DNA from: an uncultured bacterium
Lineage (GTDB): Bacteria > CAZDME01 > JAYEMH01
Length of the DNA: 64,000 nt
Assembly (NCBI GenBank): GCA_964506075.1
Contig: CAZDKO010000001.1
Location: forward strand, 25,637-89,636
Reading direction: 5' to 3'
Numbering within the stretch: the stretch's first letter is position 1; each line of letters begins with the position of its first letter. The position numbers and the translations under genes are program-made. Under the pieces are notes generated by a model. That model was not told the DNA's origin, ran no database searches, and saw only the letters and a program-made list of their open reading frames with translations. Positions 172 to 63,688 of this stretch are shown one piece after another.

Positions 172-180
172 AGACAGGAT

Positions 181-40941: not shown

Positions 40942-41160
40942 AATTTACAATAAACAAATTCCAAATTACCCGTCTGCCCTGTCTGCCGAGAGGGAGGTGC
41001 CCCGCTTCGCCAAGCGAGGCGAGCAGGCAGGCGACAAACAGATAAACAATATACAAATTCCAAAACCGAAATTCCCAATAGCATATTGTCTATGGTATAT
41101 TGTAGTTTGTTTGTAATTTGTATATTGGTAATTGGAATTTACTGGACTATAAGGTAAATA
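40942..41160. repeat. Heptad-periodic AT-rich intergenic region with an embedded GC-rich hairpin island (40970-41036)
   Basis: caaattN heptads; a GC island ccgtctgccctgtctgccgagagggaggtgccccgcttcgccaagcgaggcgagcaggcaggcgac with local hairpin cgctt-cgcc-aagcg; then atattgt|ctatggt|atattgt|agtttgt|ttgtaat|ttgtata|ttggtaa|ttggaat. Confidence 0.55.
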
Positions 41161-42570
41161 ATGGTTTTAAAAGTTTATAACACACTCAAGCGAAAGAAAG
41201 AAGAATTTATTCCTCTTAAAAAAGGCAGGGTAAATATGTATGTCTGCGGGGTCACGGTTTACGATGACTGCCACCTGGGACACGCCCGGGCGTACGTTGC
41301 TTTTGACGTTATCCGCCGGTATCTGGAGGATAAAGGATATAAAGTTAACTATATCCAGAATTTTACCGATATAGACGATAAGATTATTAACCGGGCGAGG
41401 GAGGAAGTGGCCTCCTCCGGCGATAAAAAGGCCGATTTAAAGGAAAAAGTGAAAGAAATAAGCGAGCGCTACATCAAATCTTACTTTGAGGTAATGGATA
41501 AGCTGAACATCAAAAGGGCGGATAAATATCCTAAAGCGACCGAAAATATCCCGGAAATGATTCAGATGATTAAAATTCTTATTGACAGGGGGTTTGCTTA
41601 TGAGGTGGACGGCAATGTTTACTTTGCGGTGGAGAACTTTAAAAACTACGGTAAACTTTCCCGTCGGCCGCGCGACGAAATGGCTAATATCAGCCGGATT
41701 GAAAAGGATGAAAATAAAAAAAGCCCGCTTGATTTTGCTCTATGGAAAAAGTCAAAGCCGGATGAACCGGCCTGGCCTGACCCCTGGGGAGAAGGCCGCC
41801 CGGGCTGGCACATAGAGTGCTCGGTGATGTCTCAGAAAAATCTGGGGGAGACCCTTGATATTCACGGGGGAGGGAGTGATTTAATTTTCCCTCACCACGA
41901 AAACGAAATTGCCCAGTCAGAGGCTTATACGGGAAAACCCTTTGTCCGCTACTGGCTTCATAACGGCTTTATTACCATTAATAAAGAGAAAATGTCTAAA
42001 TCGTTAGGTAATATCTTTGCTTTAAAAGACCTTTTTGGAAAATATCCACCCGAAGTGGTTCGTCTTTTTCTTATTTCCACTCACTACCGCAGTCCCATTG
42101 ATTTCAGCCCGGATAAAATTGAGGAAGCCCGGAAAAAATGGGAAAGAATCAGTATTTGTTTAGAAAAAAAACCGGCGGTGATTCCGGAAAAGAGAGTAAA
42201 TTATCTAGATACAGAAAAACTTTTTACCCGTTTTGAAGAATTTATGGATGATGATTTTAATACTGCCGGGGCAATCGGAATCGTTTTTGAACTGGTGGGG
42301 ATGATTAATAAAGAGTTGGAGAAAGATAGGCCTGAAGAAAAATTAATTAACGCCGGTTATCAGGTTTTAGAGAAGATGCTTAAAGTTTTAGGGTTGCCGG
42401 ATAGAATCGTGAAAAAATCCGAACAGGAAATTGAGGACTTAATCAGGCAAAGAGAAGAAGCGCGTGCTTCTAAAAACTGGGCTTTGTCCGATAAAATCCG
42501 CGACGAATTAAAATCGCGCGGCGTCGTCCTTGAAGATACCAAAGACGGGACGAAGTGGAGGAGAATATAG
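41161..42570 (+). CDS. cysS: Cysteine--tRNA ligase
   Basis: HIGH-type motif CHLGHARAYVAFDVIRRYL and KMSKS. Zn-binding cysteines are present. Length is 469 aa. Confidence 0.9.
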   Translation: MVLKVYNTLKRKKEEFIPLKKGRVNMYVCGVTVYDDCHLGHARAYVAFDVIRRYLEDKGYKVNYIQNFTDIDDKIINRAREEVASSGDKKADLKEKVKEISERYIKSYFEVMDKLNIKRADKYPKATENIPEMIQMIKILIDRGFAYEVDGNVYFAVENFKNYGKLSRRPRDEMANISRIEKDENKKSPLDFALWKKSKPDEPAWPDPWGEGRPGWHIECSVMSQKNLGETLDIHGGGSDLIFPHHENEIAQSEAYTGKPFVRYWLHNGFITINKEKMSKSLGNIFALKDLFGKYPPEVVRLFLISTHYRSPIDFSPDKIEEARKKWERISICLEKKPAVIPEKRVNYLDTEKLFTRFEEFMDDDFNTAGAIGIVFELVGMINKELEKDRPEEKLINAGYQVLEKMLKVLGLPDRIVKKSEQEIEDLIRQREEARASKNWALSDKIRDELKSRGVVLEDTKDGTKWRRI

Positions 42571-42623
42571 GTTTTCCGGTTTATAACTGGTCAACCGGCT
42601 AACTGAAAGCAAGGAGGGAAAAA

Positions 42624-43409
42624 ATGGACTGGGGAATGAAAAATCGTTTAAATACACTGATGCCGAACGGGCGTTGTTTTTTTATGCCCATTGACCACGG
42701 TTATTTTCAGGGGCCGACGAGGGGATTGGAAAAACCGGGCGAAACGATAAAGCTACTCCTTCCTTATGTTGACGCTCTTTTTTGCACCAGAGGCGTTCTT
42801 CGTTCATCAATTGACCCTCTGAAAAGTAAACCGATTGTTTTAAGAGTCTCGGGATGCACCAGTATGGTCGGGGGAGACCTGGCTAATGAAGAAGTTACCA
42901 CCTCAATCGAAGAGATTATTCGCCTCAACGCCTCGGCCGTGGGAGTATCTGTTTTTATCGGTAGTAATTATGAACGACAGACGTTACTTAATCTTTCCAA
43001 AATGGTTAATGACTGCGAAAATTACGGTATCCCGGTCATGGCCGTAACCGCCGTAGGCAAGGAACTGGAAAAACGGGACGCGCGGTATCTCTCTTTATGC
43101 TGCCGGATTGCGGCCGAACTGGGAGCGCGCGTGGTCAAAACTTACTGGTGTGAAAATTTTGAGAAAGTCGTTCAGGGCTGTCCGGTTCCGGTGATTATGG
43201 CCGGCGGACCAAAATGCGAAACAGAAAAAGAGGTTTTTGAATTTGTTTACGACGGGATGCAGAAAGGCGCGGTCGGCATCAATCTGGGACGGAATGTCTG
43301 GCAGAATCCTGCTCCGGTTTCCATAGCTAAAGCCTTAAGAGCGATCGTTCATAAAAAAGCAACGGTTAGAGAAGCAGTCGAGATATTTAAAGAAAATAAA
43401 AAGGAATAA
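42624..43409 (+). CDS. Class I aldolase of the DhnA/FbaB (DeoC/LacD-fold) family
   Basis: FFMPIDHGYFQGPTRGLE near the N-terminus. Length (261 aa) and TIM-barrel layout are typical of DhnA-type fructose-bisphosphate / ADH-synthase aldolases. Confidence 0.65.
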   Translation: MDWGMKNRLNTLMPNGRCFFMPIDHGYFQGPTRGLEKPGETIKLLLPYVDALFCTRGVLRSSIDPLKSKPIVLRVSGCTSMVGGDLANEEVTTSIEEIIRLNASAVGVSVFIGSNYERQTLLNLSKMVNDCENYGIPVMAVTAVGKELEKRDARYLSLCCRIAAELGARVVKTYWCENFEKVVQGCPVPVIMAGGPKCETEKEVFEFVYDGMQKGAVGINLGRNVWQNPAPVSIAKALRAIVHKKATVREAVEIFKENKKE

Positions 43410-43410
43410 T

Positions 43411-43481
43411 AAATCATAAATTCCAAATTACAATAGACAAATTACAAACAATACACAATATCCAATATCCAATATTAAATA
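43411..43481. repeat. Heptanucleotide tandem array (10 units)
   Basis: aaatcat|aaattcc|aaattac|aatagac|aaattac|aaacaat|acacaat|atccaat|atccaat|attaaat. Confidence 0.65.
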
Positions 43482-43841
43482 ATGTCTATAACTCGAACCA
43501 AACCATATGATTTAGAAGAAAGAACTTTAGAATTTGCTAAGGGAATAATTAAACTATGTAAAAAGATGAACAGGGATACAATTAATATAAAACTAATTGG
43601 ACAATTAATAGCTTCTTCAACCTCTGTGGGAGCAAATTATAGAGAGGCAAATGAAAAACTAAGCAAGAAAGATTTTCTGCACAGGATGAGGATTTCTAGA
43701 AAAGAATGTAAGGAAACAAGTTTTTGGTTAGAGCTTATTAAAGAGACAAATGGCCAATTTGAAAACGAATTAAACAGTTTTATTAGAGAATCTCAAGAGT
43801 TAAGAAATATATTTACCTCTATTATCGATAAATCTAAATAA
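43482..43841 (+). CDS. Four-helix-bundle protein (23S rRNA intervening-sequence protein family)
   Basis: ..LEFAKGIIKLCKKM..IGQLIASSTSVGANYREANEKLSKKDFLHRMRISRKECKETSFWLELIKE matches the conserved core of this family. Length is 119 aa. Confidence 0.7.
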   Translation: MSITRTKPYDLEERTLEFAKGIIKLCKKMNRDTINIKLIGQLIASSTSVGANYREANEKLSKKDFLHRMRISRKECKETSFWLELIKETNGQFENELNSFIRESQELRNIFTSIIDKSK

Positions 43842-43989
43842 TTTTTAGCTTTTGTGTATTAAAGTTTTGTATATTGTTTGCCCTGTGAAATTTAAAGAAT
43901 TTCCAGGATTAAGTTCCCGCAATTTTTCAAATTACAGGGGATAATTTGTAATTTATGTATTGTAATTTTAACTATTTTGGTAATGTAAA

Positions 43990-44967
43990 ATGCGTGTAGC
44001 TGTTTATTATAACAATCACGATATCCGCCTGGAAGAAAGGCCGGTGCCTGAAATTTCAACCGGTGAAATTCTGGTTAAAATGATGGCCAGCGGTATCTGC
44101 GGAACCGACGTGATGGAATGGTACCGAATTCAAAAAGCCCCGCGGGTTCTGGGGCATGAGATAGCCGGTATCATTGCTGAGTCTAAGTCAAAAAAATATA
44201 AAGCGGGGGAGAGGGTATTTGTCAGCCATCACGTGCCCTGTAATACCTGTAAATATTGTCTGGATGGTAATCATACGGCTTGCGAGACACTTCATAAAGG
44301 TAACTACGAACCGGGTGGATATAGTGAATTTATCCGGGTGTCCAGAGAAAATGTCAGTCTCGGCACTTATGTTTTACCGAAAAGTGTTTCTTATGAAGAA
44401 GGAACGATGATTGAGCCTTTAGCCTGTGCCGTCAGAGGCCAGAGAATAATTACCGTTAAGAAAGGGCAGATAGTTTTAGTTCTGGGAAGCGGTGTTTCGG
44501 GTCTTTTAAATATTCGTCTGGCGAAATTAAAAGGAGCCAGAGTTATTGCGACCGACATCAATGATTACCGGTTAAATAAGGCCAGAGAGTTTGGCGCCGA
44601 TGAAGTTTTAAAACCGGATGAGGTCTTAAGTCTTAAAGCAGACCGGATTATCATTTGTACCGGTGCGTACCAGGCCGTCAAGCAGGCCTTTGACTGTATA
44701 GACAGAAAAGGCATCATCTTACTTTTTGCCATTCCTGACCGAAACATAGAAGTACCGGTTACGGATTTCTGGAGAAACGAAATCACCATTACCTCTTCTT
44801 ACGGCGCCGCCCCGTCTGATTTAAAAGAAGCCCTGGATTTAATCAAAGATAAAAAGGTGGACGTTAAGGCCACAATTACCCACCGGCTGCCGTTAGAGGA
44901 AATTCTGGAAGCTTTCCGGATAGTTTCTGAAGCGGGAGAATCTTTAAAGGTAGTTTTGACCCCTTAA
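43990..44967 (+). CDS. Zn-dependent alcohol dehydrogenase, MDR family (threonine/sorbitol dehydrogenase-like)
   Basis: GICGTDV..GHEIAGII has the catalytic Zn ligands. The structural Zn site is CNTCKYCLDGNHTAC. The Rossmann motif is VLGSGVSG. Confidence 0.75.
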   Translation: MRVAVYYNNHDIRLEERPVPEISTGEILVKMMASGICGTDVMEWYRIQKAPRVLGHEIAGIIAESKSKKYKAGERVFVSHHVPCNTCKYCLDGNHTACETLHKGNYEPGGYSEFIRVSRENVSLGTYVLPKSVSYEEGTMIEPLACAVRGQRIITVKKGQIVLVLGSGVSGLLNIRLAKLKGARVIATDINDYRLNKAREFGADEVLKPDEVLSLKADRIIICTGAYQAVKQAFDCIDRKGIILLFAIPDRNIEVPVTDFWRNEITITSSYGAAPSDLKEALDLIKDKKVDVKATITHRLPLEEILEAFRIVSEAGESLKVVLTP

Positions 44968-44985
44968 TAATACATACTAAAAATA

Positions 44986-48510: not shown

Positions 48511-49129
48511 ATTAAGAAAAGAGCTGGCTGGATTCGGCCGGAAGCTCTTTGAAAAAGGATTAATTCATGGTTCGGGCGGGAATATAAGCGCGCGGGAAGG
48601 GAAATTTGTTTATCTTTCCCCGAGCGGGTTTTATCTTAATAATATTAAGCCTTCCCAGCACATTAAGCTGAATTTAAGAACCGGTAAAAAAGAAAATTCT
48701 GTTTTAAAGCCCACCTGCGAAACCCCTATGCATCTGGCCTGTTATCGAGCCAGAAGTGATATTCAGGCGGTCATCCATGTCCACCCTCCTTTTGCCATTG
48801 CTTCAAGCTGTGCCGGAATAACCCTCAGAGCTTTATTTCCGGATTTTGTCGTTTTAATCGGGGATAAGGTGCCTTTAGTTCCTTATTTTATTCCCGGCTC
48901 TCAAATTATCGGGGAAAGATTTAAAAAGATTTTTAAAAAATATTCAGCCGTCTTGATTCAGAATCACGGACTGGTTACCGTGGGTAAAAATCTTTCCGAG
49001 GCCTTTCTCCGGGCAGAAATTATTGAGGAAGCGGCTAAGATTTATTACCTGGCTCGCTCACTGGGCCGGGTGAGGTTTCTATCCAAAAAAGAAATAGTGG
49101 AGATTGAAAAGAAATATAAAGGGAAATAG
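48500..49129 (+). CDS. Class II aldolase/adducin-family protein (fuculose-phosphate aldolase / MTRu-1-P dehydratase-like)
   Basis: MSSRLRKELAGFGRKLFEKGLIHGSGGNISAREG..AVIHVHPP..NHGLVTVG. The likely start is ATG 48500, in frame inside the longer track ORF that starts at 48422. Confidence 0.65.
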   Translation: MSSRLRKELAGFGRKLFEKGLIHGSGGNISAREGKFVYLSPSGFYLNNIKPSQHIKLNLRTGKKENSVLKPTCETPMHLACYRARSDIQAVIHVHPPFAIASSCAGITLRALFPDFVVLIGDKVPLVPYFIPGSQIIGERFKKIFKKYSAVLIQNHGLVTVGKNLSEAFLRAEIIEEAAKIYYLARSLGRVRFLSKKEIVEIEKKYKGK

Positions 49130-49130
49130 A

Positions 49131-49290
49131 TAACAGAGTACAGATTACAGAGAACAGAGTGACGAAAAAGTAAATAAAGAATTAAGGATTAAGACGCTCA
49201 CTTTGTTCGCTCTAAGAATTAAGGAATATAAGTAAAATAAATACTTAATTCTTAATCCTTAGTTCTTAATTCTGGATTATCTGTCATTTA
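49131..49290. repeat. Intergenic heptad-word repeat (ACAGANN array plus ATTAAGG/CTTAAT words) containing the 36-bp element copy at 49175-49210
   Basis: acagagt|acagatt|acagaga|acagagt; aggattaagacgCTCACTttgTTCGCTctaagaatt; cttaattcttaatccttagttcttaattc. Confidence 0.6.
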
Positions 49291-50449: not shown

Positions 50450-51658
50450 ATGCAAAAAATATTAATTGGTTTGTTTTTAACCATTATCCTGGTTTTGTCT
50501 TCATCCTCTGTTTCTCAGGCGCTTACCTGGGAGATAAATGAGATTTCAACCACGGCCAACAATTTCTCCCCCCAGATAGACGGAAGCAAAGTGGTCTGGG
50601 CGGGAGCCGACGATTATACTGCCGACATATATCTCTACGATATCAATACCGGAACGGCCGCCAACATTTCAAATAATTCTGAGACAGATAGTTCTCCTCA
50701 GATAAGCGGGAATAATGTCACCTGGTATGGTAGTAACGATTATGATATATCCTTTTATAATGGCACAGAGGTAACGAATATTACCAACAGCCCGGGTTTT
50801 TATGACCTATACCCCGAGATAGATGGAAGCAAGGTGGTCTGGGGAGGAAGAGTTATAGGCACTAGCGTGGCTGAAATATATCTTTACGATTACAGCACCG
50901 GAGGGACAACTAATCTTTCCAACACCCCAGATTACGGTGATGTGGATCCCCGGATAAGCGGGAATTATGTGGTTTGGAACGGGGGCTCTTCCTCCGGACA
51001 AAGCCAGATATACGGTTATAACGGGACGGCGAAAATCCAAATTACAAACAACCTTTATTCAAATACAGCTCCCCAGATAAGCGGAAATTACGTGACCTGG
51101 AAGGGTTATTACAGCGGTAATTACCTCATAGGGCTTTACGATTTTAGTACCGGTGAGACAACTAATATTTATAGTGGTACCACTTGGCACGCTTCACCTC
51201 AGATAGGCGGGCATTATGTAACCTGGCTTCAAAGTGACGGCGTATACCTTTACGATATTGAGACCACGAATATGATTCAGCTTTCCACCAATTATTATTC
51301 CAGCGGGTATAACATAAGCGGGAATAATGTGGTCTGGTGTGAATATGAGAGTATCAACCCCGATCCTTTCGATCCCTTTGGTTCAACAATGTATAAGTAT
51401 GAGATATTCTTTTATGATGGGTCAAATGTAACTCAGATTACCGATAACGGCGAGACCCTGTTTGAGTCTTATTCTGCTCCGGTAATAGACGGGAATAACG
51501 TGGTTTGGACGGCGGATAGGGCCGTATTTCTGGCCAAAGGGTTAGGGGATGAAGAAGAAGAGGAAGAAGAATTAATCCCCGAACCGGCCTCACTTTTGCT
51601 TTTGGGGATGGGGGTATTGGGAATAGGGTTGTTCAGGAGGAGAAGGTTGTTGGGATGA
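50450..51658 (+). CDS. Secreted PD40/TolB-like beta-propeller repeat protein with a PEP-CTERM sorting signal
   Basis: Signal peptide ..SVSQA|LTW. About 8 repeats of the form SPQIDGSKVVW..DIYLYDINTGTAANIS. An acidic stretch EEEEEEE is followed by IPEPASLLLLGMGVLGIGLFRRRRLLG (PEP motif, TM helix, Arg cluster). Confidence 0.75.
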   Translation: MQKILIGLFLTIILVLSSSSVSQALTWEINEISTTANNFSPQIDGSKVVWAGADDYTADIYLYDINTGTAANISNNSETDSSPQISGNNVTWYGSNDYDISFYNGTEVTNITNSPGFYDLYPEIDGSKVVWGGRVIGTSVAEIYLYDYSTGGTTNLSNTPDYGDVDPRISGNYVVWNGGSSSGQSQIYGYNGTAKIQITNNLYSNTAPQISGNYVTWKGYYSGNYLIGLYDFSTGETTNIYSGTTWHASPQIGGHYVTWLQSDGVYLYDIETTNMIQLSTNYYSSGYNISGNNVVWCEYESINPDPFDPFGSTMYKYEIFFYDGSNVTQITDNGETLFESYSAPVIDGNNVVWTADRAVFLAKGLGDEEEEEEELIPEPASLLLLGMGVLGIGLFRRRRLLG

Positions 51659-51815
51659 GTCTGATATAAAATTTCAACTTATTTTCTATTTTTTCTCCGG
51701 ACATTTCACCCTATTACCGCAATTTGATTTCTGATAAAAAAATATGCTATAATTAACCTGTACAAAAACCTACAGAGATTAATTACCAGAATTACCACCT
51801 TATTATAATAATAGA

Positions 51816-53090
51816 ATGAAAAAATCAGTGATTTACTTATTTTCTTTCCTTAGCGCCGCGATTATTCTCGGTATTTTCCCTTCTTCAGGTTTTACCCAAA
51901 CGCACACCATTACCCAGCTTACGGCGCCAGACATAACAGAGGCAGATGAACCTAGAATAAATAACAATGGAGAAGTAGTCTGGTCTGGAGTCGATGAGAA
52001 CGGTAATTATCAGGTACTCTTTTACGATGGTACCACCACATATCAACTTACAGATGATGATAATGATAATTATATGCCTCAGATAAATAACAATGGTCAG
52101 GTAGTTTGGTTGGGAGCTGGCGATATATATTTCTGGGATGGAATACATCCGGCCGGTCCTACCATAACCCGGGTTACCACCACTGACTATTGGGAGAACT
52201 CCTACCATATCAACGATAACGGAGAAATTGTCTGGTATGGTGGTCCGGGCGGCGTGAGCATGAATTATGAAATATATTTCTGGGACGGAAATGATTCCTA
52301 CCAGATTACGGATAATACTTTAGGAGACCATGAACCTAAAATCAACAATAATGGTCGGGTAGTCTGGAATAAGTTTGATGGTCATGACCTGGAAATATAT
52401 TTCTGGGATGGGATAAATCCGGCCAGTCCTACCACAATCCAGATTACCAATAATACTTTGAGTGCTCAATATCAACAGATAAACAACAATGGACAGGTAG
52501 TCTGGTGTGAAGGTTATCATAATGGCGGTAATGAAGACCTATATTTCTGGGACGGAATGGACCCTCTGAACCCCAACATCATCTCGCTGGGCATGGAAGG
52601 CAATGGCAGGTCCTATTATCCCCAGATAAACAATAACGGAGCAGTAGTCTGGTATATGCATGAGTATGATCTTGACCCGGAGAGTGAAGAAGATGATTAT
52701 GAAATCTATTTATGGGACGGAACTAGCATTATCCAGATTACCGATAATGACTTTGATGACGGGGTAGACGGGGTACAGATAAACGATAATGGAGACATAG
52801 TGTGGGTGGGCGGAGTTTTTTGGGGTGCAGGAATAAATACTGAATTATACTTTTATGATGGTTCTACCGGACTTATTACCCAGCTTACCGAGGATACGGC
52901 AACCCACTATTCTCCCCAAATAAATAATAATGGGGATATAGTCTGGTACAGTTACAATGAAGATGAGGAAATGGTCGTCTTGTTTGCCAGCAGAGACCAG
53001 GGTGAAGACGTCATTCCCGAACCGGCCTCACTTTTGCTTTTGGGGATAGGGGTGGTGGGTATAGGGTTGTTCAGGAAAAAGAAAAATTAG
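51816..53090 (+). CDS. Secreted beta-propeller repeat protein with a PEP-CTERM sorting signal (paralog)
   Basis: Signal peptide. Repeats PQINNNGQVVW..EIYFWDG..QITDN. The C-terminus is IPEPASLLLLGIGVVGIGLFRKKKN. The roughly 60 nt encoding the sorting signal is nearly identical to 51579-51640. Confidence 0.75.
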   Translation: MKKSVIYLFSFLSAAIILGIFPSSGFTQTHTITQLTAPDITEADEPRINNNGEVVWSGVDENGNYQVLFYDGTTTYQLTDDDNDNYMPQINNNGQVVWLGAGDIYFWDGIHPAGPTITRVTTTDYWENSYHINDNGEIVWYGGPGGVSMNYEIYFWDGNDSYQITDNTLGDHEPKINNNGRVVWNKFDGHDLEIYFWDGINPASPTTIQITNNTLSAQYQQINNNGQVVWCEGYHNGGNEDLYFWDGMDPLNPNIISLGMEGNGRSYYPQINNNGAVVWYMHEYDLDPESEEDDYEIYLWDGTSIIQITDNDFDDGVDGVQINDNGDIVWVGGVFWGAGINTELYFYDGSTGLITQLTEDTATHYSPQINNNGDIVWYSYNEDEEMVVLFASRDQGEDVIPEPASLLLLGIGVVGIGLFRKKKN

Positions 53091-53158
53091 TTAAAAACGA
53101 CCGCCCGCCTTTATCGGGTAAAAGAAGGCAAAAAATAGTATCCGATATTTAATTCCGG

Positions 53159-53197
53159 AAGACGTAACTATTCTAAAATGGTTACGTCTTTTTTTAT
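53159..53197 (+). terminator. Rho-independent terminator after the PEP-CTERM pair
   Basis: aagacgtaac..(12-nt loop)..gttacgtctt forms a 10-bp perfect stem followed by T7. Confidence 0.65.
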
Positions 53198-56635: not shown

Positions 56636-57631
56636 ATGTTTGAAGGAAAGCCGCGAGTCGCTATTACCATGGGAGATGCCGCTGGTATTGGTCCGGAAGT
56701 AACTCTCAAAGCGCTGTTTGACCCGCAAATTCAAAATTTAGCCCGGTATGTGGTTTTTGGTAATAGCCGCTATTTAAAATTTATAGCTCAAAAAGTTTTA
56801 TATAAAAAAGCTAATGTATATTCTTTAAAAGATATTAAGGATTTAGAGAGACCCGGGAAAGGCATAGCCGTTTTAGATTTTGAGAGTCTCCCCGGTAAAT
56901 TTATCTGGGGAAAAATAAATCCTGAAATAGCCCGGGCGGCTTTAATTTATATTAAAGAGGCGGCCAATTTATGCCTGAAAGGAAAATTTGCGGCTTTAGT
57001 TACGGCCCCGGTAAATAAAGAGGCGATAAATCAAGCCGGATTTAAATTTTCCGGCCATACGGAATTTTTAGCTCAATTTTCCAGGGTTAAAAGTTTTATG
57101 ATGATGCTTATCGGTGGCGGCTGGCGGGTTATCCTGGTGACCCGGCACCAGCCTTTAAAAAAAGTAAGCCGGCTTCTTAGTGTTGATAAGATTGTTGAAG
57201 CCGTTGAATTGGGGGTAGAGGGTTTAAAGAAACTGGGGATTAAAAAACCGCGGATAGCGGTGGCCGCTTTTAATCCGCACGCCGGTGAGGGCGGTGTTCT
57301 GGGGGATGAAGAAGAGAAAATTATTACCCCGGCAGTCAAAAAGATGAAGAAAAAGGGGATAATAGTTTACGGCCCCCTGGCTAGTGACACTTTGTTCCTA
57401 CCCAGGAATAGAGAAAAATATGATGCCCAGGTTGTTATGTATCATGACCAGGGGTTAATCCCGCTTAAAATGAGTGGTTTTGGAAAAGCAGTTAATGTAA
57501 CCTGGGGGTTACCTTTTATCCGGACCTCTCCCGGTCATGGCACGGCTTACGAATTGGCCGGAAAAGGGGAAGCCGACCCCGACAGTATGAAAGAAGCGAT
57601 TAAACTGGCCGTGAAACTGGCTAAAGCATGA
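56636..57631 (+). CDS. pdxA: 4-hydroxythreonine-4-phosphate dehydrogenase
   Basis: PRVAITMGDAAGIGPEV at the N-terminus, ..SGHTEFLA.., and a length of 331 aa fit the PdxA family. Confidence 0.8.
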   Translation: MFEGKPRVAITMGDAAGIGPEVTLKALFDPQIQNLARYVVFGNSRYLKFIAQKVLYKKANVYSLKDIKDLERPGKGIAVLDFESLPGKFIWGKINPEIARAALIYIKEAANLCLKGKFAALVTAPVNKEAINQAGFKFSGHTEFLAQFSRVKSFMMMLIGGGWRVILVTRHQPLKKVSRLLSVDKIVEAVELGVEGLKKLGIKKPRIAVAAFNPHAGEGGVLGDEEEKIITPAVKKMKKKGIIVYGPLASDTLFLPRNREKYDAQVVMYHDQGLIPLKMSGFGKAVNVTWGLPFIRTSPGHGTAYELAGKGEADPDSMKEAIKLAVKLAKA

Positions 57632-57640
57632 ATTGGTGAG

Positions 57641-57736
57641 TGGTTAACTGATTTATCAGTTGGCCGGTTTACCAGTTATCAGTAATCAATTTTCAGAATA
57701 CGGATGACGGTATACGGGTAACGGAATACGGTATAC
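57641..57736. repeat. Heptad tandem array CRGNNNN (at least 9 consecutive units) and shared words with 14521-14560
   Basis: cagttat|cagtaat|caatttt|cagaata|cggatga|cggtata|cgggtaa|cggaata|cggtata. The upstream ccggtttaccagtta also occurs at 14536-14550. Confidence 0.65.
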
Positions 57737-57747
57737 CTGCCTGCAGC

Positions 57748-57778
57748 CCGCCTGTCGGCGGACAGGGCGGACAGGCGG
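57748..57778. repeat. GC-rich hairpin island (ccgcctgtc / gacaggcgg stem, 13-nt loop)
   Basis: The island shares words (cctgtc, gacagg, gccgagag) with the GC island at 40970-41036. It lies about 115 nt after the pdxA stop with no trailing T-run. Confidence 0.45.
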
Positions 57779-57855
57779 CCGAGAGAAGACAAATTTAGTT
57801 ATAGGTTTCACGTTTAGATTAACTAACTACTGGTGGATGATTTCGCCAAAGGATT

Positions 57856-59058: not shown

Positions 59059-59091
59059 AAAAGGAGACTTTTCTAACGGTAAATCTTAGAG

Positions 59092-60033
59092 GTGAAAATG
59101 TTAAAGAAAGATTTGATTTCCATTACCGAGCTTTCCCGTGAGGATATAAAACTCATATTCGATTGGACGGTGAAGATTAAACGCAGTAAAAATGGAGGGA
59201 AGGGTTTACTGTCGGGGAAAAGTCTGGGCTTAATTTTTGAAAAACCTTCCAGCCGGACGCGTATCTCCTTTGAAGTGGCGATGTATCAGTTAGGAGGCCA
59301 GGCAATCTACCTCGGGGAGGAGCAGATTCAGTTAGGGAAACGGGAAAGTGTGGCTGATGTGGCCAGGACGGTTTCCCGTTATATTGATGGGGTGGTCTTA
59401 CGGACTTTTTCTCACGAGACAATTCTTGAATTTGCCCGTTTTGCTTCCATCGCGGTTATCAACGGTCTTTCTGATTTATACCATCCCTGTCAGGTTTTAG
59501 CCGACATTTTCACTTTTAATGAACTTAAGGGAAAAATAAAAGGCAAAACGGTTGCTTTTATTGGCGATGGTAACAACGTTGCTCGTTCCTGGATCTGGGG
59601 AGCAGCTAAGACGGGGATAAACCTGGTTCTTTCTTCGCCTTTACAATATAAGATTGAAGAGACCCTGATTAAAGAAGCAGATAAAATAGCCAGAAAAAAT
59701 GGCGGTAGTATTCAATTTGAAATGGAACCGCATCAAGCAGTAAAAAATGCCGATCTTATTTATACGGATGTCTGGGTGAGTATGGGACAGGAAGAAGAGA
59801 GAGAAAAACGGGAAAAAAGTTTTGCTGCCTACCAGGTGAATGATGAACTTTTGTCTTTAGCTAATCCAGACTGTCTGGTGATGCACTGTTTACCGGCGCA
59901 TCGTGGGGAAGAAATAACCAATAGCGTCCTTGACGGTAAACACTCAGTCGTCTGGGATGAAGCGGAAAACCGTCTCCACGTGCAAAAAGCCATTCTTTAT
60001 TTACTATTGGGAAAAAAATTAGTTAATTTTTAG
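59092..60033 (+). CDS. argF: Ornithine carbamoyltransferase
   Basis: STRTR carbamoyl-phosphate motif (SSRTRISFEVA), DVWVSMGQEEE (the OTC SMG motif) and HCLP. Confidence 0.85.
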   Translation: MKMLKKDLISITELSREDIKLIFDWTVKIKRSKNGGKGLLSGKSLGLIFEKPSSRTRISFEVAMYQLGGQAIYLGEEQIQLGKRESVADVARTVSRYIDGVVLRTFSHETILEFARFASIAVINGLSDLYHPCQVLADIFTFNELKGKIKGKTVAFIGDGNNVARSWIWGAAKTGINLVLSSPLQYKIEETLIKEADKIARKNGGSIQFEMEPHQAVKNADLIYTDVWVSMGQEEEREKREKSFAAYQVNDELLSLANPDCLVMHCLPAHRGEEITNSVLDGKHSVVWDEAENRLHVQKAILYLLLGKKLVNF

Positions 60034-60097
60034 GAAATAGTATCCAGTGTTTAGCAGACGTTAATCACTAACGACTGATGAATGGAAGGGGGATAAA

Positions 60098-60874
60098 ATG
60101 GCAAAAGAAAGTATGGGATTTTGGAAAAGCGTGATTAATAGTTTTAATCCGAATAGCTACGTAAAAATTACCGGACAAAAATTCGGCCGGAGCTTTTTGT
60201 ATCTCTTCCTTTTAATCATCACCATCTCTCTTTTTCTTTCGGTAAGGTTAAGTTCAACTATAGTTCACTTAACGAGTGAATTCGTAGGTAAAGTTGGTGA
60301 AAAAATCCCTGAAATCAGGATTACCGAAGGGGTAGTTTCAGTTCCAATTGCCCAGCCGTATGTTTACGTGGTAGAAAACTATGCTTTTATCATCGATACT
60401 ACCGGACAGGTTAGTTCTCTGGATGATTATGATTCAGGGATGCTTCTGACCAGGGATAAACTTATTTATAAAGATAAAGCCAGGATGAAAACCGAAAGTT
60501 ACGATTTGTCAAAAATAAATTCACTTTATCTGACTCCGGAAACATTAAATAATTGGCTGAGGAAGGGAAGCAAGGTATTAATTCCTATATTGTTTATTAT
60601 TCTGGTAATTTATTATCTGGTGGCAAAGAACATACAGCTTTTTCTATTCAGTTTAGCCGCCCTTCTGGCTAACCAGATTAAGAACAAAAAATTGAGTTAT
60701 CACGAACTTTTAAATATCGGGGTTTACGCGTTGACTCCGCCGACTCTTCTGGCGTCTGTTATGATTCTTTTTAATCTTAGGTTTCCTCTTTTTGGCTTAA
60801 TCTATAGTTTGCTTTATATACTCATTATAGTCTTAGCGGTCGGAAGAATTCCACAGCAGGGAGAAGTTAAATGA
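60098..60874 (+). CDS. Hypothetical polytopic membrane protein embedded in the arg cluster
   Basis: Four or five TM helices. The stop overlaps the argG start (ATGA). Confidence 0.45.
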   Translation: MAKESMGFWKSVINSFNPNSYVKITGQKFGRSFLYLFLLIITISLFLSVRLSSTIVHLTSEFVGKVGEKIPEIRITEGVVSVPIAQPYVYVVENYAFIIDTTGQVSSLDDYDSGMLLTRDKLIYKDKARMKTESYDLSKINSLYLTPETLNNWLRKGSKVLIPILFIILVIYYLVAKNIQLFLFSLAALLANQIKNKKLSYHELLNIGVYALTPPTLLASVMILFNLRFPLFGLIYSLLYILIIVLAVGRIPQQGEVK

Positions 60875-62073
60875 ATAAAAAGAAAATTGTTTTAGCCTAT
60901 TCCGGCGGATTAGATACATCGGTGGCCATATCCTGGCTTAAAAAAGAACGAGGGCTGGAAGTAATTGCTCTTTTAGTTGACCTCGGTCAGCCCAAGGATC
61001 TTACCCGGGTGAAAGATAAAGCTTTAAAAATTGGGGCGAGTTCTGCTTATTTAATTGACGCCAAAGAGGAATTTTTAAAGGAATATGTTTATCCGGCGCT
61101 TAAGGCCGGGGCAGTTTATGAAGGTAAGTATTTCCTGGCTACGGCCCTGGGGCGGCCTTTAATCGCTAAAAAACTTGTTGAAGTCGCCCGTCGGGAAAAG
61201 GCGGATTTCGTTGCCCATGGCTGCACCGGCAAAGGCAACGATCAGGTTCGGTTTGAAGTGTCCATCATGGCTTTAAATCCCCGGTTAAAAGTCATCGCTC
61301 CTATCCGGGAGTGGACTTTAAAAACCCGGGAAGAATCGATGATTTATGCTAAAAAAAATAACATCCCGATTGACCAGACTAAAAAATCACCTTATAGTCT
61401 TGACGAAAATCTCTGGGGAGTAAGCATTGAATGCGGGGTGCTGGAGGACCCGACTAATGTTCCGCCGGATGATGCTTATCATTATACACAGTCTTTAAAA
61501 AAAGCGCCTGATAAAGCTCAAACGGTAGAAATAGAGTTTAAAGAGGGAATTCCGCTTAAGCTCAACAATAAAAGTTTAAGCCCGGTAGAACTGGTTTTAG
61601 AACTGAGTAAAATTGGGGGGGAGCATGGGATTGGACGGACCGATTTAGTGGAAAACCGGCTGGTCGGTATTAAATCACGTGAAATTTATGAGGCCCCGGC
61701 GGCAAAAATTCTTCATACCGCTCACCGCGCCTTAGAAGAATTAACCCTGGACCGGGAGACATTTCATTTTAAAGAAGGCGTGGCTTTAAAGTATGCCGAA
61801 CTTGTATATTACGGTTATTGGTTTTCTCCTTTAAGGGAGGCGCTCGATGCTTTTATTGATGTCTCCCAGAAAAATGTTACTGGCCAGATTCAAATGAGTC
61901 TTTATAAAGGAAACTGTGAAGTGCTAAGTCGTAAATCACCTTATAGTCTATACCAGAAGAATTTAGCTACTTATGAAAAGGGAGATATATTTGACCAGAG
62001 TTTAGCCGAGGGTTTTATTAAACTCTGGGGGCTGCCGCTTAAGGTTCAAGCGGAATTGAAGAAGAAAGATTGA
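60871..62073 (+). CDS. argG: Argininosuccinate synthase
   Basis: IVLAYSGGLDTSVAISWLK (PP-loop) and ..HGCTGKGNDQVRFE.. are the argG signatures. Confidence 0.9.
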   Translation: MNKKKIVLAYSGGLDTSVAISWLKKERGLEVIALLVDLGQPKDLTRVKDKALKIGASSAYLIDAKEEFLKEYVYPALKAGAVYEGKYFLATALGRPLIAKKLVEVARREKADFVAHGCTGKGNDQVRFEVSIMALNPRLKVIAPIREWTLKTREESMIYAKKNNIPIDQTKKSPYSLDENLWGVSIECGVLEDPTNVPPDDAYHYTQSLKKAPDKAQTVEIEFKEGIPLKLNNKSLSPVELVLELSKIGGEHGIGRTDLVENRLVGIKSREIYEAPAAKILHTAHRALEELTLDRETFHFKEGVALKYAELVYYGYWFSPLREALDAFIDVSQKNVTGQIQMSLYKGNCEVLSRKSPYSLYQKNLATYEKGDIFDQSLAEGFIKLWGLPLKVQAELKKKD

Positions 62074-62148
62074 ATTATACTATAAAACGTTCACTGCGTT
62101 CACTAGTGATTAGTTAAATGGTTAATTAGTTAACTGGTTGAAAGGTAT

Positions 62149-62215
62149 GTAGTCGTTAGTGAATAGTATTTAGAAGGGTTTACTAAATACTAACGACTAT
62201 TCACCAATGACTGGT
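62149..62215. repeat. Inverted pair of heptad arrays: TAGNNNN x4 then NNNNACT x5
   Basis: tagtcgt|tagtgaa|tagtatt|tagaagg then gtttact|aaatact|aacgact|attcacc|aatgact. The arms can pair (tagtatttag / ctaaatacta, gtcgtta / taacgac). The word AGTCGTTAGTGA also occurs at 60061-60085 in reverse complement. Confidence 0.55.
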
Positions 62216-62240
62216 CAACTTATACAACCGGGAGGACATC

Positions 62241-63614
62241 ATGAAACTTTGGGGAGGACGGTTCAGGAAAAAAACCCATCCAAAGGCAGAAGAATTTCTT
62301 TCATCCATTTCCTTCGACCAGCGGCTTTACCGTGAAGATATTGAGGGAAGTATCGCCCACGCCAAGATGCTGGGTGCTTCTGGTATTATTACTGAAAAAG
62401 AAGCCGAATCAATGGTCAAAGGTTTAGAAGAGATAAAAGGAGAAATAGAGAAAGGACAAATCCATTTTCTTGAAGAAGAAGATATCCATATGGCCATAGA
62501 AGAATACCTGGCTAAAAAAATCGGTGAGACGGCCGGGAAGCTTCATACCGCCCGCAGCCGTAATGACCAGGTGGCGCTGGATATGCGTCTTTTTTTACGC
62601 CGGGAAATCAAGGCAATTTCTAATTTGATTGAGACGTTAGAAAGGGTTATCCTGGATAAAGCTTCGGAAAATATCAAAGTGATTATGCCCGGGTTTACCC
62701 ATCTCCAGCACGCTCAGCCCGTTCTTTTTTCGCATCACCTTTTGACCTATTTTTATATGCTTAACCGCGATAAAAGCCGTCTGGATGATTGTTTAAAAAG
62801 GGTCAACGTTTTACCTCTGGGTTCGGCGGCAATAGCCGGGACTTCTTTACCCATTGACCGCGAATACGTCGCCAAGCTTTTGGATTTCCCGGAAATTTCT
62901 CCTCATTCAATTGATGCGGTAAGCGACCGGGATTTTATCGTTGAATTCGTGGCGACGAGCGCCATCATCGCCATGCATCTTTCCCGTTTCAGTGAAGAGT
63001 TGATTTTATGGGTCACGACGGAGTTCGGTTTTATTTCCATCGGTGATGATTTCTGTACCGGTAGCAGCCTTATGCCGCAGAAAAAAAATCCTGACGTGGC
63101 CGAATTGGTGCGGGCCAAAACCGGACGGGTATACGGGAATTTAATTCAGATTCTAACTATCTTGAAAGGTCTCCCGCTGGCTTATAACCGGGACATGCAG
63201 GAGGATAAAATTTCTCTTTTTGATACGGTGGACACTATAAAAGAAATCCTTTCTGTTTTTTCCGATATGCTTAAGACAGTGGAAATAAATAAAGAAAAAA
63301 TGGAGAAAGAAGCCCAACAAGGATATCTCCTGGCAACTGACTTAGCCGAATATCTGGTTAAAAAAGGGGTTCCTTTTCGTGAGGCGCACATATCGGTGGG
63401 GAAACTGGTAAAATATGCGGAGGAGCACGAGAAAAAATTAGAAAACCTGACCCTGGATGAATTTAAAGCTTTTTCTTATCAGTTTGAAAAAGATGTTTAC
63501 CAGATAATGAACCTGGATGTATCGGTTAACTCTAAAAAATCATCAGGAGGAACCTCTCCGGATAATGTAGAGAAGATGATTTCCGAAGCGAGAAAACAAA
63601 TAGGGAATGGTTAA
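62241..63614 (+). CDS. argH: Argininosuccinate lyase
   Basis: MKLWGGRF at the N-terminus. The fumarate-lyase signature is GSSLMPQKKNPD. Length is 457 aa. Confidence 0.9.
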   Translation: MKLWGGRFRKKTHPKAEEFLSSISFDQRLYREDIEGSIAHAKMLGASGIITEKEAESMVKGLEEIKGEIEKGQIHFLEEEDIHMAIEEYLAKKIGETAGKLHTARSRNDQVALDMRLFLRREIKAISNLIETLERVILDKASENIKVIMPGFTHLQHAQPVLFSHHLLTYFYMLNRDKSRLDDCLKRVNVLPLGSAAIAGTSLPIDREYVAKLLDFPEISPHSIDAVSDRDFIVEFVATSAIIAMHLSRFSEELILWVTTEFGFISIGDDFCTGSSLMPQKKNPDVAELVRAKTGRVYGNLIQILTILKGLPLAYNRDMQEDKISLFDTVDTIKEILSVFSDMLKTVEINKEKMEKEAQQGYLLATDLAEYLVKKGVPFREAHISVGKLVKYAEEHEKKLENLTLDEFKAFSYQFEKDVYQIMNLDVSVNSKKSSGGTSPDNVEKMISEARKQIGNG

Positions 63615-63688
63615 TTGGTGATTAGCAATTTAAATCACGGTTTTATTAATTAACCAGTAACCAATTAACCATTTAACCAAATAAAAGT

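What the first reader, a model, noticed from the sequence alone, without database searches (positions are those of the whole stretch)
40942..63688. Many intergenic regions are built from degenerate 7-bp tandem arrays
Strict 7-nt periodicity is visible at many loci:
- 181-230: TAAGNNN x7
- 5871-5905 and 7867-7915: AGTAGNN
- 5935-5960 and 14623-14657: AATGMCN
- 43411-43481: 10 units, AAATTNC / ACAATNN / ATCCAAT
- 41075-41140: ATATTGT / TTGTAAT / TTGGTAA, 9 units
- 49133-49160: ACAGANN
- 57676-57736: CAG/CGGNNNN, 9 units
- 62149-62215: TAGNNNN x4 then NNNNACT x5
- 63646-63685: TAACCAN
The same words recur at distant loci (ccggtttaccagtta at 14536 and 57681; taactggtgag / ggtgagtggttaactg). Tandem heptamer intergenic repeats (STRR) are established in heterocystous cyanobacteria, but the gene content here does not look cyanobacterial. 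These could be binding arrays, curvature elements, or slippage-prone contingency sequences.
Basis: seen in the sequence. Interest (0 to 1): 0.7.

Follow-up and report, generated by a model that had tools for sequence, protein, structure and literature searches.

The report
Heptamer-repeat hairpins linked to IVP gene
The 7-base repeat arrays between genes are real, mostly come as complementary pairs that form hairpins, and belong to a widespread kind of small inserted element that, in every case I sampled across six named bacterial phyla plus this unplaced lineage, brackets a small gene of unknown function, the 'four-helix-bundle' or 23S-rRNA-intervening-sequence protein (IVP), one copy of which lies in this window.

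Summary
Lag-7 identity in intergenic DNA is 0.353 against 0.2835 in shuffles (z=12). By a separate calculation it is 0.362 in intergenic DNA against 0.253 in coding DNA. The arrays occur across the whole window, not only at 40.9-63.7 kb.

The organism is an uncultured PVC-like bacterium, not a cyanobacterium. Two relatives at about 70% PilM identity carry arrays in the same spacers, with different words.

The arrays are not simple microsatellites:
- Multi-word blocks recur at distant loci (82 nt, 89% complementary).
- About half of the arrays have an adjacent inverted partner and fold as hairpins.
- One hairpin pair (43410-43478 / 43943-43985) encloses a PF05635/TIGR02436 gene (43482-43841).

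I sampled 22 such genes from Bacteroidota, Bacillota, Chloroflexota, Spirochaetota, Cyanobacteriota, a MAG labelled Pseudomonadota, unnamed metagenome contigs, and this window's own unplaced lineage. All 22 have a period-7 array on at least one side, against 4% of 448 control genes. The arms are strongly complementary in 16 of 22, against 0.7% of controls.

The published Coxiella 23S rRNA intervening sequence has tandem GACAGAT heptamers before the same kind of ORF, inside a stem that RNase III cuts.

Best reading: these are intervening-sequence-like palindromic elements, most without an ORF, inserted into operon spacers. How they move, and what the protein does, remain inferred.

The parts
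166..280 (.). TAAGNNN array (176-230), followed by the inverted CTTAANN words and a GC-richer core (TGAGCGTAGCGAAC, 253-266). This is a variant of the TAAGGAT hairpin element.
   Evidence: It forms inverted repeat I6 with 49185-49223 (39 nt, 85%).
5871..5984 (+). Composite block: AGTAGWY x5-6, a junction, then TAATGCC/TAATTCC/TAATGAC words. It starts directly after the stop codon of the upstream gene.
   Evidence: Positions 5871-5952 are 89% complementary over 82 nt to 14707-14788 (I1).
5986..6098 (.). ACAGANN array (+) immediately followed by its inverted array (NNTCTGT). The hairpin is followed by a T-rich run and lies upstream of a TTGACT-17-TATATT promoter-like site at about 6102-6130.
   Evidence: The local inverted partner scores z=13. 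The fold of 5984-6050 gives z=-1.7.
7867..7915 (+). AGTAGNN x7, overlapping the pilM stop codon. It has no local inverted partner.
14530..14792 (.). PolA|CoaE spacer built from TTACCAG/TTAACTG words, an AATGMCN hairpin (14621-14653 / 14702-14727) and an inverted AGTAG array (14733-14792) that ends 12 nt before the coaE ATG.
   Evidence: (fold z=-2.2). The orthologous spacers in relatives L082 and L083 also hold arrays, with other words.
40942..41141 (.). Insertion in the cysE|cysS spacer: AAATTAC-type arm (40942-40969), GC-rich hairpin (40970-41035), then an ORF-less hairpin of complementary arms (41037-41082 / 41083-41141).
   Evidence: (fold z=-4.6). The cysE-cysS spacer is about 13 nt or less in 22 of 26 other genomes, against 219 nt here. 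Positions 41083-41141 are 81% complementary to 43417-43475 (I2).
43410..43478 (+). Upstream arm of the IVP element (AAATTCC/AAATTAC/CAATAGA/CAATATC words). It abuts the ATG with no Shine-Dalgarno sequence.
43482..43841 (+). Gene for a 119-aa four-helix-bundle / 23S rRNA intervening-sequence protein (IVP, S23p family).
   Evidence: PF05635. TIGR02436 scores 83.6 bits against a cut-off of 24. PDB 2RLD matches at E=1e-15.
43849..43985 (-). Downstream arms (TTGTATA/TTTGTAA words at 43849-43880 and 43943-43985), complementary to the upstream arm, with a small CCCTGT...ACAGGG hairpin between them.
   Evidence: Arm complementarity scores 19, against 9.8+-1.3 in shuffles (z=7). Both the MFE and centroid folds pair about 43425-43448 with about 43944-43968, enclosing the ORF.
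49128..49160 (+). ACAGANN x4.5, directly after the stop codon of the upstream gene.
49173..49273 (.). TAAGGAT/ATCCTTA hairpin with the conserved core GACGCTCACTTTGTTCGCTC (49193-49212). It is a copy of an element found nearly unchanged on 25 metagenome contigs.
   Evidence: (fold z=-3.8).
57632..57780 (.). pdxA|argD spacer: TAACTGA-type words with small hairpins, ATACGGN x5.6 (57698-57736), and a GC-rich CTGCC/GGCAG hairpin (57737-57780).
62099..62215 (.). argG|argH spacer: ATTAGTTA/TTAACTG words, then a hairpin of TAGNNNN against NNNNCTA arrays (62149-62172 / 62179-62215). The heptamer units are partly permuted between the two arms.
   Evidence: fold z=-3.8.
63643..63685 (+). TAACCAN units spaced 7-8 nt apart, ending 3 nt before the lysA-like ATG.
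   Evidence: (period 8/16). It is complementary to 14556-14587 (I11).

Best explanation
The arrays are the arms, and the eroded or single-arm remnants, of a family of small palindromic intergenic elements. Each element is a pair of complementary, degenerate heptamer arrays that can fold back on each other.

They are the same kind of object as two known things. One is the intervening sequences (IVS) that carry the S23p / four-helix-bundle ORF in 23S rRNA. The other is the STRR/TAACTGA heptamer repeats of cyanobacteria, Beggiatoaceae and Bacteroidota.

One complete copy, with its ORF, lies at 43410-43985. The other copies have no ORF. They sit as insertions in the spacers of housekeeping operons (cysE|cysS, deoC|adh, polA|coaE, pdxA|argD, argG|argH).

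Shown here:
- The periodicity.
- The hairpin architecture.
- Copying of composite blocks between loci and between genomes.
- The invariable bracketing of IVP genes by such arrays.
- The insertion character of the cysE|cysS block.

Inferred:
- The arrays lengthen, shorten and exchange units by slippage between repeats, and by copying between the two arms.
- ORF-less hairpins relate to the ORF-bearing element as miniature derivatives, or as its preferred insertion sites.
- When the operon is transcribed, the arms pair into a stem that RNase III cuts, as demonstrated for the Coxiella IVS. This would make an insertion inside an operon tolerable.

The enzyme that moves the elements, and the role of the pentameric IVP protein, are unknown.
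For: Periodicity:
- Lag-7 z=12. 13 of 15 period-7 runs are intergenic.

Copying and pairing inside the window:
- Composite, multi-word blocks recur in inverted orientation: 82 nt at 89% and 59 nt at 81%.
- Local inverted partners have z>3 for arrays at 5986-6098, 14702-14727 (its partner 14621-14657 scores z=2.1), 40942-41141, 49173-49273 and 62149-62215.
- RNA fold z-scores are -3.8, -4.6 and -3.8.

The IVP gene in the window:
- The ORF at 43482-43841 matches PF05635 and TIGR02436 and lies between complementary arms.

The 22 IVP loci sampled:
- They come from Bacteroidota, Bacillota, Chloroflexota, Spirochaetota, Cyanobacteriota, a MAG labelled Pseudomonadota, Omnitrophota-labelled MAGs, unnamed metagenome contigs, and this window.
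- A period-7 score of at least 0.71 is found on at least one side in 22 of 22, and on both sides in 17 of 22. Arm complementarity of at least 14 is found in 16 of 22.
- For 448 control ORFs the figures are 4%, 0.2% and 0.7%.
- In 120 kb around three non-cyanobacterial IVP genes, every period-7 array lies within 5 kb of the gene.

Spread between contexts:
- Six IVP genes that are 66-79% identical to the window's sit in six unrelated gene contexts and share the AAATTAC/CAATAGA arm words.
- The TAAGGAT hairpin with its 20-nt core is nearly identical on 25 contigs with different flanks.

Insertion character:
- The cysE-cysS spacer is about 13 nt or less in 22 of 26 genomes, against 219 nt of arrays here.

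Published precedent:
- In the Coxiella IVS, 2-3 tandem GACAGAT units precede the S23p ORF, the number varies by strain, and RNase III cuts the terminal stem in vitro (PMC4990558).

The window's other word families also occur as IVP arms elsewhere: AGTAGAG in L175, TAACTGA-type in Chondrinema, and ACAGAT in Coxiella.
Against: - Most arrays are not next to an IVP gene. There is one gene for about 15 array blocks here, and 21 of 23 arrays in the CysS-anchored loci have none within the DNA fetched.
- Several arrays have no inverted partner: AGTAGNN at 5871 and 7867, ATACGGN at 57698, and (ACAGAAG)x12 in L082.
- Arm mismatches show no excess of G:U over A:C on the sense strand (28 against 24, p=0.68). 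Selection for an RNA stem is therefore not shown.
- IVP paralogues that are 69-75% identical in cyanobacteria have unrelated words. Arms do not simply travel with the gene.
- In Anabaena and Nostoc the IVP gene lies antisense between cas2 and cas1.
- No transposase, reverse transcriptase or RAYT gene is in the window.
- No unit-number polymorphism was seen.
Confidence: 0.55

Rival explanations
1. The arrays are cis-acting binding sites for a multimeric nucleic-acid-binding protein that reads one heptamer per subunit. Candidates are ribosomal protein S1 or cold-shock proteins acting as Shine-Dalgarno-independent translation enhancers (as proposed for TAACTGA repeats), a HutP-like reader of UAG-N4 repeats, or the pentameric IVP protein itself.
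For: - Many arrays end 3-40 nt before a start codon that lacks a Shine-Dalgarno sequence: 14802, 41161, 43482, 63688, coaE in L083, and most IVP genes.
- Units keep a 4-5-nt core with 2-3 variable positions, for example AGTAGWY and ACAGANN.
- MacGregor 2015 reports the same position for TAACTGA repeats.
- S23p is a toroidal homopentamer.
Against: - At least eight unrelated word families occur in one 64-kb window.
- The same word occurs in both orientations on the transcribed strand.
- Orthologous spacers in relatives carry different words.
- Closely related IVP proteins have unrelated flanking words.
- The spacers are short, so closeness to a start codon is largely unavoidable.
Confidence: 0.2
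2. The arrays are neutral by-products of replication slippage. On this reading they are heptamer microsatellites that arise in place, then decay, and are tolerated only outside genes because 7 is not a multiple of 3.
For: - Heptamers are reported as the commonest long simple-repeat class in prokaryotes (Mrazek 2007, as summarised in PMC4679880).
- Lag 7 is the commonest array period even in the CysS-anchored loci from diverse genomes.
- Words turn over at orthologous spacers.
- There is no wobble signature of RNA-level selection.
Against: - Blocks made of several different words plus unique junctions are shared between distant loci (82 nt at 89%) and between genomes.
- Pairing with complementary arrays is systematic.
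- The association with one gene family is 22 of 22, against 4% in controls.
- Variation is concentrated at unit positions 6-7 rather than spread evenly.
Confidence: 0.12
3. The arrays are REP/BIME- or REPIN-like extragenic palindromes. On this reading they are host-domesticated hairpins acting as terminators, mRNA 3'-end stabilisers or gyrase/IHF sites, spread by a RAYT-type transposase.
For: - They are intergenic, palindromic and clustered in mosaics of alternating orientation.
- The hairpin at 5986-6040 is followed by a T-run.
- Spacers that have a canonical terminator (53157-53192) lack arrays.
Against: - No RAYT or IS200/IS605 gene is in the window.
- The arms are tandem heptamers of many different words, not one conserved 20-40-nt palindrome with a GTAG head.
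- Most hairpins lack a T-tail. Terminator-like sites are no more frequent than in shuffles (28 against 23.9+-4.4).
Confidence: 0.08

Closest known systems
23S rRNA intervening sequences carrying the S23p ORF (Coxiella burnetii, Leptospira, Brucella, Xanthomonas)
   Same: They share an ORF of the same family (PF05635) enclosed by terminal inverted repeats that form a stem. In Coxiella, 2-3 tandem heptamers (GACAGAT, of the same type as ACAGANN here) lie just before the ATG, inside the stem cut by RNase III, and their number varies by strain. The start has a poor or absent Shine-Dalgarno sequence (PMC4990558).
   Different: Here the element lies in the spacer of a protein-coding operon, not in helix 25 or 45 of 23S rRNA. 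The arms are longer arrays of several word types. ORF-less copies are numerous. RNase III cutting has not been tested.
STRR (short tandemly repeated repetitive) heptamers of heterocystous cyanobacteria
   Same: Both are tandem heptanucleotides, intergenic, at many loci, with several word families per genome. The Euhalothece arm (TGGTCAC)x12 resembles STRR2 (TTGGTCA); that consensus is from my own knowledge.
   Different: The host is a PVC-like uncultured bacterium. The words differ from the STRR1-3 consensus sequences. The arrays here are short (4-8 units) and degenerate.
TAACTGA intergenic direct repeats of marine Beggiatoaceae, Cyanobacteria and Bacteroidetes (MacGregor 2015, PMC4679880)
   Same: Both are heptamer direct repeats of 2-6 or more units, sometimes split by related 7-mers, often ending within a few nt of a start codon that lacks a Shine-Dalgarno sequence. 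The phyletic distribution is patchy and suggests horizontal transfer. TAACTG-type words occur at 14568, 57642 and 62130. L083 has (ACTGANN)x9 abutting the coaE ATG.
   Different: That study treated one exact word and found almost only direct repeats. It did not connect them to IVP genes or hairpins: searching the paper for 'S23', '23S' and 'helix bundle' gave no occurrences. Here many words coexist and inverted pairing is common.
Small dispersed repeats nested in heptamer arrays of Nostoc punctiforme (Elhai et al. 2008; from my own knowledge, paper not held)
   Same: In both, short conserved cores are embedded in tandem heptamers within hairpin contexts. The TAAGGAT hairpin with its 20-nt core, and the GC-rich CTGCC/GGCAG hairpins inside arrays, look analogous.
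   Different: The core sequences are different and the phylum is different. I have no evidence that the cores are the mobile unit here.
REP/BIME/REPIN extragenic palindromes
   Same: Both are intergenic palindromic elements in mosaics, present in many copies, and are possible targets for insertions (PMC3116915).
   Different: Here there is no RAYT gene and no conserved GTAG-headed palindrome, and the arms are built from tandem 7-mers.
Geobacter metallireducens tandem heptanucleotide elements (x4 GGACCGG; x5 MTYCTGA)
   Same: They are multicopy elements made of 4-5 tandem heptamers, some drawn as two-strand (palindromic) sites (PMC2700814).
   Different: Those elements are GC-rich, occur within genes as well, and were interpreted as regulator sites. 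No IVP link was examined.

Membership tests
STRR heptamer repeats | Tandem repeats with a 7-nt unit | tested here: met
   Tandem Repeats Finder gives period 7 at more than 15 loci. Lag-7 z=12.
STRR heptamer repeats | Dispersed at many intergenic loci of one genome | tested here: met
   13 of 15 period-7 runs are intergenic, spread over 0.2-63.7 kb.
STRR heptamer repeats | Host is a heterocystous or filamentous cyanobacterium, with consensus units STRR1-3 (CCCCAGT, TTGGTCA, CAACAGT; consensus sequences from my own knowledge) | tested here: not met
   The gene content is PVC-like. The words are AGTAGNN, ACAGANN, TAAGGAT, AATGMCN and AAATTAC.
IVS / S23p element | ORF of the PF05635 / TIGR02436 family | tested here: met
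IVS / S23p element | ORF enclosed by terminal inverted repeats able to form a stem | tested here: met
   Arm complementarity z=7. The closing stem appears in both the MFE and centroid folds.
IVS / S23p element | Tandem heptamers directly upstream of the ORF (Coxiella) | tested here: met
   43410-43478 holds 10 units abutting the ATG.
IVS / S23p element | Inserted in helix 25 or 45 of a 23S rRNA gene | tested here: not met
   There is no rRNA in the window (Rfam finds only tRNA-Val). The element lies between a deoC-family gene and a dehydrogenase gene.
IVS / S23p element | Excised from the transcript by RNase III | not testable with these tools
   This needs RNA-end mapping. The G:U against A:C test on the arms gave no RNA-specific signal.
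TAACTGA repeats (MacGregor 2015) | Exact TAACTGA units in direct tandem, forward orientation, ending within a few nt of a start codon | tested here: inconclusive
   The window has only degenerate TAACTG-type words. Relative L083 has ACTGANN x8-9, with one array abutting the coaE ATG.
REP/REPIN | Cognate RAYT (IS200/IS605-like) transposase and a single conserved palindrome family | tested here: not met
   No such gene is among the window's ORFs, though the rest of the genome was not seen. There are many unrelated words.
Phase-variation (contingency) simple repeats | Unit number varies between closely related strains or reads | tested here: not met
   Two Logan contigs are identical to the window. 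There is no length difference among 8 samples and 7 samples of two IVP loci. The sample is small.

The most novel reading that the evidence does not exclude
The four-helix-bundle / S23p (PF05635) gene together with its inverted heptamer arrays forms a widespread, so far unrecognised class of mobile 'intervening sequence' that invades transcribed spacers (rRNA, operons, cas and restriction-modification loci). On this reading, these elements and their ORF-less derivatives are the source of the STRR/TAACTGA-type heptamer repeats whose origin and horizontal spread have been unexplained since 1990. The toroidal IVP pentamer would bind the heptamer arrays, one unit per subunit, to promote copying or processing.
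Probability: 0.3. Interest if true: 0.85.

Novelty: new variant of a known kind. Interest (0 to 1): 0.62.

Why it matters
Heptamer tandem repeats have been catalogued in cyanobacteria and scattered other bacteria for decades, without a known origin or function. The PF05635 'four helix bundle' family has thousands of members and also has no known function.

If the two are parts of one element, both problems become testable. The available tests are binding assays of the protein on its own flanking arrays, RNase III mapping, and mobility assays in Nostoc or Anabaena.

It would also explain three things:
- why these small genes turn up inside cas, restriction-modification and housekeeping operons;
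- why the same heptamer words appear in unrelated phyla;
- why such genes sit on short, broken metagenome contigs.

For annotation, it flags 100-500-nt 'spacers' in operons as insertions rather than as regulatory regions.

Tried and rejected
- Retrieving the rest of the source contig. The exact PilM protein is on a 132,672-bp NCBI contig, but the look-up failed. CoaE was not on record.
- Strain variation. The two Logan contigs are identical to the window. 8 and 7 samples of two related IVP loci show no array-length difference.
- The 'operon bracketed by complementary arms' idea, based on I1 around the pilM-polA block and I2 around cysS-deoC. It was not reproduced in relatives L082 and L083. 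I2 is better explained as similarity between an ORF-less hairpin and the IVP element's arm. I1 stays unexplained.
- Protein-word co-evolution. It holds in the window's clade but fails for cyanobacterial paralogues (Spearman 0.11, not significant).
- G:U wobble test for RNA-level stems: negative.
- Rfam. Only tRNA-Val passes at gathering threshold. The TAAGGAT hairpin region gives only sub-threshold chance hits.
- Promoter and terminator scan. Counts equal those in shuffles, so it is uninformative.
- The genome-contig scan with CysS found no close relative. The best hit was 57% identical.
- Alignment A1 was mis-specified for minus-strand loci. I discarded it and redid it.
- The first duplex-energy script timed out. 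An ungapped complementarity score replaced it.
- Elhai 2008 could not be read.

Full report
**Observation.** I defined 25 spacers from the ORF map. In their 5,653 nt, identity at lag 7 is 0.353, against 0.2835 in 300 dinucleotide-preserving shuffles (z=12.0). Lags 14 and 21 are also raised. With slightly different spacer bounds, lag-7 identity is 0.362 in intergenic DNA and 0.253 in coding DNA, and both halves of the window show the signal. Thirteen of 15 sliding-window runs are intergenic. Small corrections: 63646-63685 is closer to period 8; the shared 15-mer lies at 14532 and 57664; and 62149-62215 is a hairpin of complementary arrays.

**Organism and relatives.**
- The genes are type IV pilus/secretin genes of the Amuc_1098 type, a Verru_Chthon-like pseudopilin, a sulfatase, mfd, cysE-cysS, an arg operon, radical-SAM and glycosyltransferase genes, and PEP-CTERM proteins. 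None is a transposase, reverse transcriptase or RAYT.
- No species representative is close: the best CysS hit is 57% identical.
- PilM has relatives at 67-73% identity on two JGI contigs (L082, L083) that are syntenic with 4.5-18 kb of the window.
- Both relatives also carry heptamer arrays, including at the orthologous polA|coaE spacer, but with other words. L082 has (ACAGAAG)x12. L083 has a 475-nt spacer made of ACAGANN, TAAGGAT, GCGCAAA, AAATGNC and ACTGANN arrays plus a GC-rich hairpin.
- The position is therefore conserved while the content turns over.

**Anatomy.** The arrays are not independent microsatellites.
- A whole-window repeat search shows composite blocks, made of several different words plus junctions, shared in inverted orientation. 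5871-5952 against 14707-14788 is 82 nt at 89% complementary. 41083-41141 against 43417-43475 is 59 nt at 81%. 239-277 against 49185-49223 is 39 nt at 85%.
- About half of the arrays have a complementary array next to them: 5986-6098, 14621-14727, 40942-41141, 49173-49273 and 62149-62215.
- These regions fold better than shuffles, with z of -3.8, -4.6 and -3.8.
- Others are solitary: AGTAGNN at 5871 and 7867, and ATACGGN at 57698.
- Relatives and unrelated metagenome contigs show the same hairpins built from complementary arrays.

**The gene inside a hairpin.**
- The ORF at 43482-43841 is a PF05635 / TIGR02436 'four helix bundle' (23S rRNA intervening-sequence) protein.
- Its ATG abuts a 10-unit array. 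Complementary arrays follow its stop codon. The predicted closing stem encloses the ORF.
- Among all ORFs in about 1.6 Mb of fetched DNA, the only other member found at that point was in a Eubacteriales MAG (L071). The only two period-7 arrays of that 13-kb locus flank it, in inverted orientation.

**Testing the association.**
- A tblastn search of PLSDB plasmids gave 31 records. They are dominated by Nostoc, Anabaena, Planktothrix and relatives, with Bacteroidota, Chloroflexota, Bacillota and Treponema as well.
- I fetched 14 of these, and 6 further loci through close homologues.
- All 22 loci show heptamer arrays abutting or near the gene. Examples are (ATTAGTG)x15 with CACTAAT-type units in Bernardetia, (AAAGNGG)x19 plus (CTCCGCT)x8 with (CTCCGCT)x13 in Treponema, and (TCGCAAT)x4 with (ATTGCGA)x5 in Nostoc punctiforme.
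- Quantitatively, a period-7 score of at least 0.71 is found on at least one side in 22 of 22 and on both sides in 17 of 22. Ungapped arm complementarity of at least 14 is found in 16 of 22.
- For 448 control ORFs from 80 genomes the corresponding figures are 4%, 0.2% and 0.7%.
- In 40-kb regions of Monoglobus, Chlorohelix and Treponema, every period-7 array lies within 5 kb of the gene.
- The genes sit inside otherwise conserved operons: hsdS|hsdR, helicase|methylase, RND adaptor|permease, DUF1156|HEPN, and cas2|cas1 (antisense in that last case).
- The reverse does not hold. Most arrays have no such gene nearby.

**Insertion and spread.**
- cysE and cysS touch or nearly touch in 22 of 26 diverse genomes. 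Here, 219 nt of arrays and a GC hairpin separate them.
- Homologues 66-79% identical to the window's IVP occur in six unrelated gene contexts and share its arm words. Several are on contigs labelled Omnitrophota, WOR-3 or Pseudomonadota. By comparison, this organism's CysS is at most 57% identical to anything in the species set, and its PilM is about 31-32% identical to proteins named Omnitrophota/Omnitrophica.
- The TAAGGAT hairpin at 49173-49273, with the core GACGCTCACTTYGTTCGCTC, is nearly identical on 25 metagenome contigs with different flanks and GC of 33-51%.

**Literature.**
- Heptamer repeats beyond heterocystous cyanobacteria are known. TAACTGA repeats occur in Beggiatoaceae, Cyanobacteria and Bacteroidetes, often ending just before start codons, with horizontal transfer suspected but no vehicle identified (PMC4679880).
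- Heptamers are the commonest long simple repeat in prokaryotes (Mrazek 2007, cited there).
- Geobacter has heptanucleotide elements (PMC2700814).
- PF05635 genes are reported in rRNA intervening sequences and in cas loci, and are called functionally uncharacterised.
- One paper connects the two. In the Coxiella 23S IVS, 2-3 tandem GACAGAT units precede the S23p ORF, their number differs between strains, the termini form a 28-bp stem, and RNase III cuts that stem in vitro. S23p of Xanthomonas is a toroidal homopentamer (PMC4990558).
- Searches found no paper that generalises this link. The library is incomplete, so this is not proof of novelty.

**Mechanism.** I commit to the reading that these are IVS-like palindromic elements in operon spacers, with one ORF-bearing copy and many ORF-less copies. 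Three steps are inferred rather than shown: array dynamics by slippage and arm-to-arm copying, RNase III processing of the transcribed stem, and horizontal spread. Cautions:
- There is no G:U excess in arm mismatches (28 against 24).
- There is no strict protein-word correspondence: Nostoc punctiforme paralogues at 75% identity have unrelated words.
- Antisense insertions exist.
- Solitary arrays exist.
- No polymorphism was seen.
- Whether the gene inserts into pre-existing hairpins, or the hairpins derive from the gene-bearing element, is open.

**Verdict.** The object is a new variant of known kinds (STRR repeats and the S23p IVS). The general IVP-heptamer association is a testable lead.

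Noticed in passing
window 49173-49273; L086-L142 (25 contigs); L083 8603-8672: A composite element is nearly identical on 25 metagenome contigs (GC 33-51%) with unrelated flanks: (AGGATTA)n-AGGATTAAGAC-GCTCACTTYGTTCGCTC-TAAGRATTAAG, a T-rich loop, then (CTTAATC)n. The function of the 20-nt core is unknown, and it has no Rfam match. A variant (L096, L109, L133, L141) replaces the core with a GCTCAC-loop-GTGAGC hairpin.
   Followed up: partly
window 5871-5952 and 14707-14788: Two arms, 82 nt long and 89% complementary, lie 8.75 kb apart and enclose the pilM-secretin-polA gene block. The left half of a nested AGTAG/AATGNC palindrome is at 5.9 kb and the right half at 14.7 kb. This is unexplained, and relatives L082 and L083 do not show it.
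   Followed up: partly
window 40970-41035, 57737-57780; L083 8858-8925: GC-rich CTGCC...GGCAG hairpins are embedded inside AT-rich heptamer array blocks (fold z of -2.3, -1.9 and -4.6). They are loosely alignable with one another and recall the small dispersed repeats nested in Nostoc heptamers.
   Followed up: partly
L167, L168 (Anabaena, Nostoc plasmids); L144/L149, L145/L150, L173: Four-helix-bundle genes sit inside defence operons: cas2|cas1 (on the opposite strand), hsdS|hsdR (a pseudogene in Monoglobus), helicase|N6-methylase, and DUF1156|Swt1-HEPN.
   Followed up: partly
L150 21709-24359 (Chlorohelix plasmid): Five arrays lie within or at the end of the annotated 4.2-kb N-6 DNA methylase CDS, next to the IVP gene. 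They are of the same word family as the IVP arms (ATGAAGG/ATGAACG/AATTATG). Either the CDS call spans insertions or the repeats are tolerated in frame.
   Followed up: no
L003 4806-4976 (Nitrospira japonica MAG); L060 (Anaerolinea); L063; L006; L012; L034: Degenerate heptamer arrays occur in Nitrospirota, Chloroflexota and Thermodesulfovibrionales loci that were fetched for an unrelated reason. Their words are also seen here: ACAGAAN x about 20, CAGTTAT/CAGTGAT and AAATTCT.
   Followed up: no
window 50450-53090: Two adjacent PEP-CTERM proteins contain 126-153-nt coding repeats in up to 8 copies. They share an 83-nt, 86%-identical C-terminal segment and similar downstream spacers.
   Followed up: no
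window 11991-14518; L082, L083: DNA polymerase I is split into a separate 5'-3' exonuclease gene and a polymerase gene. They overlap by 10 nt here. Both relatives have the same split, and two of the CysS-anchored loci (L004, L074) have the same adjacent pair.
   Followed up: no
one search hit list: Many close IVP homologues lie on very short contigs (0.5-3 kb). This fits flanking repeats that break short-read assemblies.
   Followed up: no
L175 1501-2936: Two different four-helix-bundle genes lie 650 nt apart on one contig, each with its own arm words (AAATTAC with outer AGTAGAG arms; AAGTAAA). This shows nested pairs of arms.
   Followed up: partly
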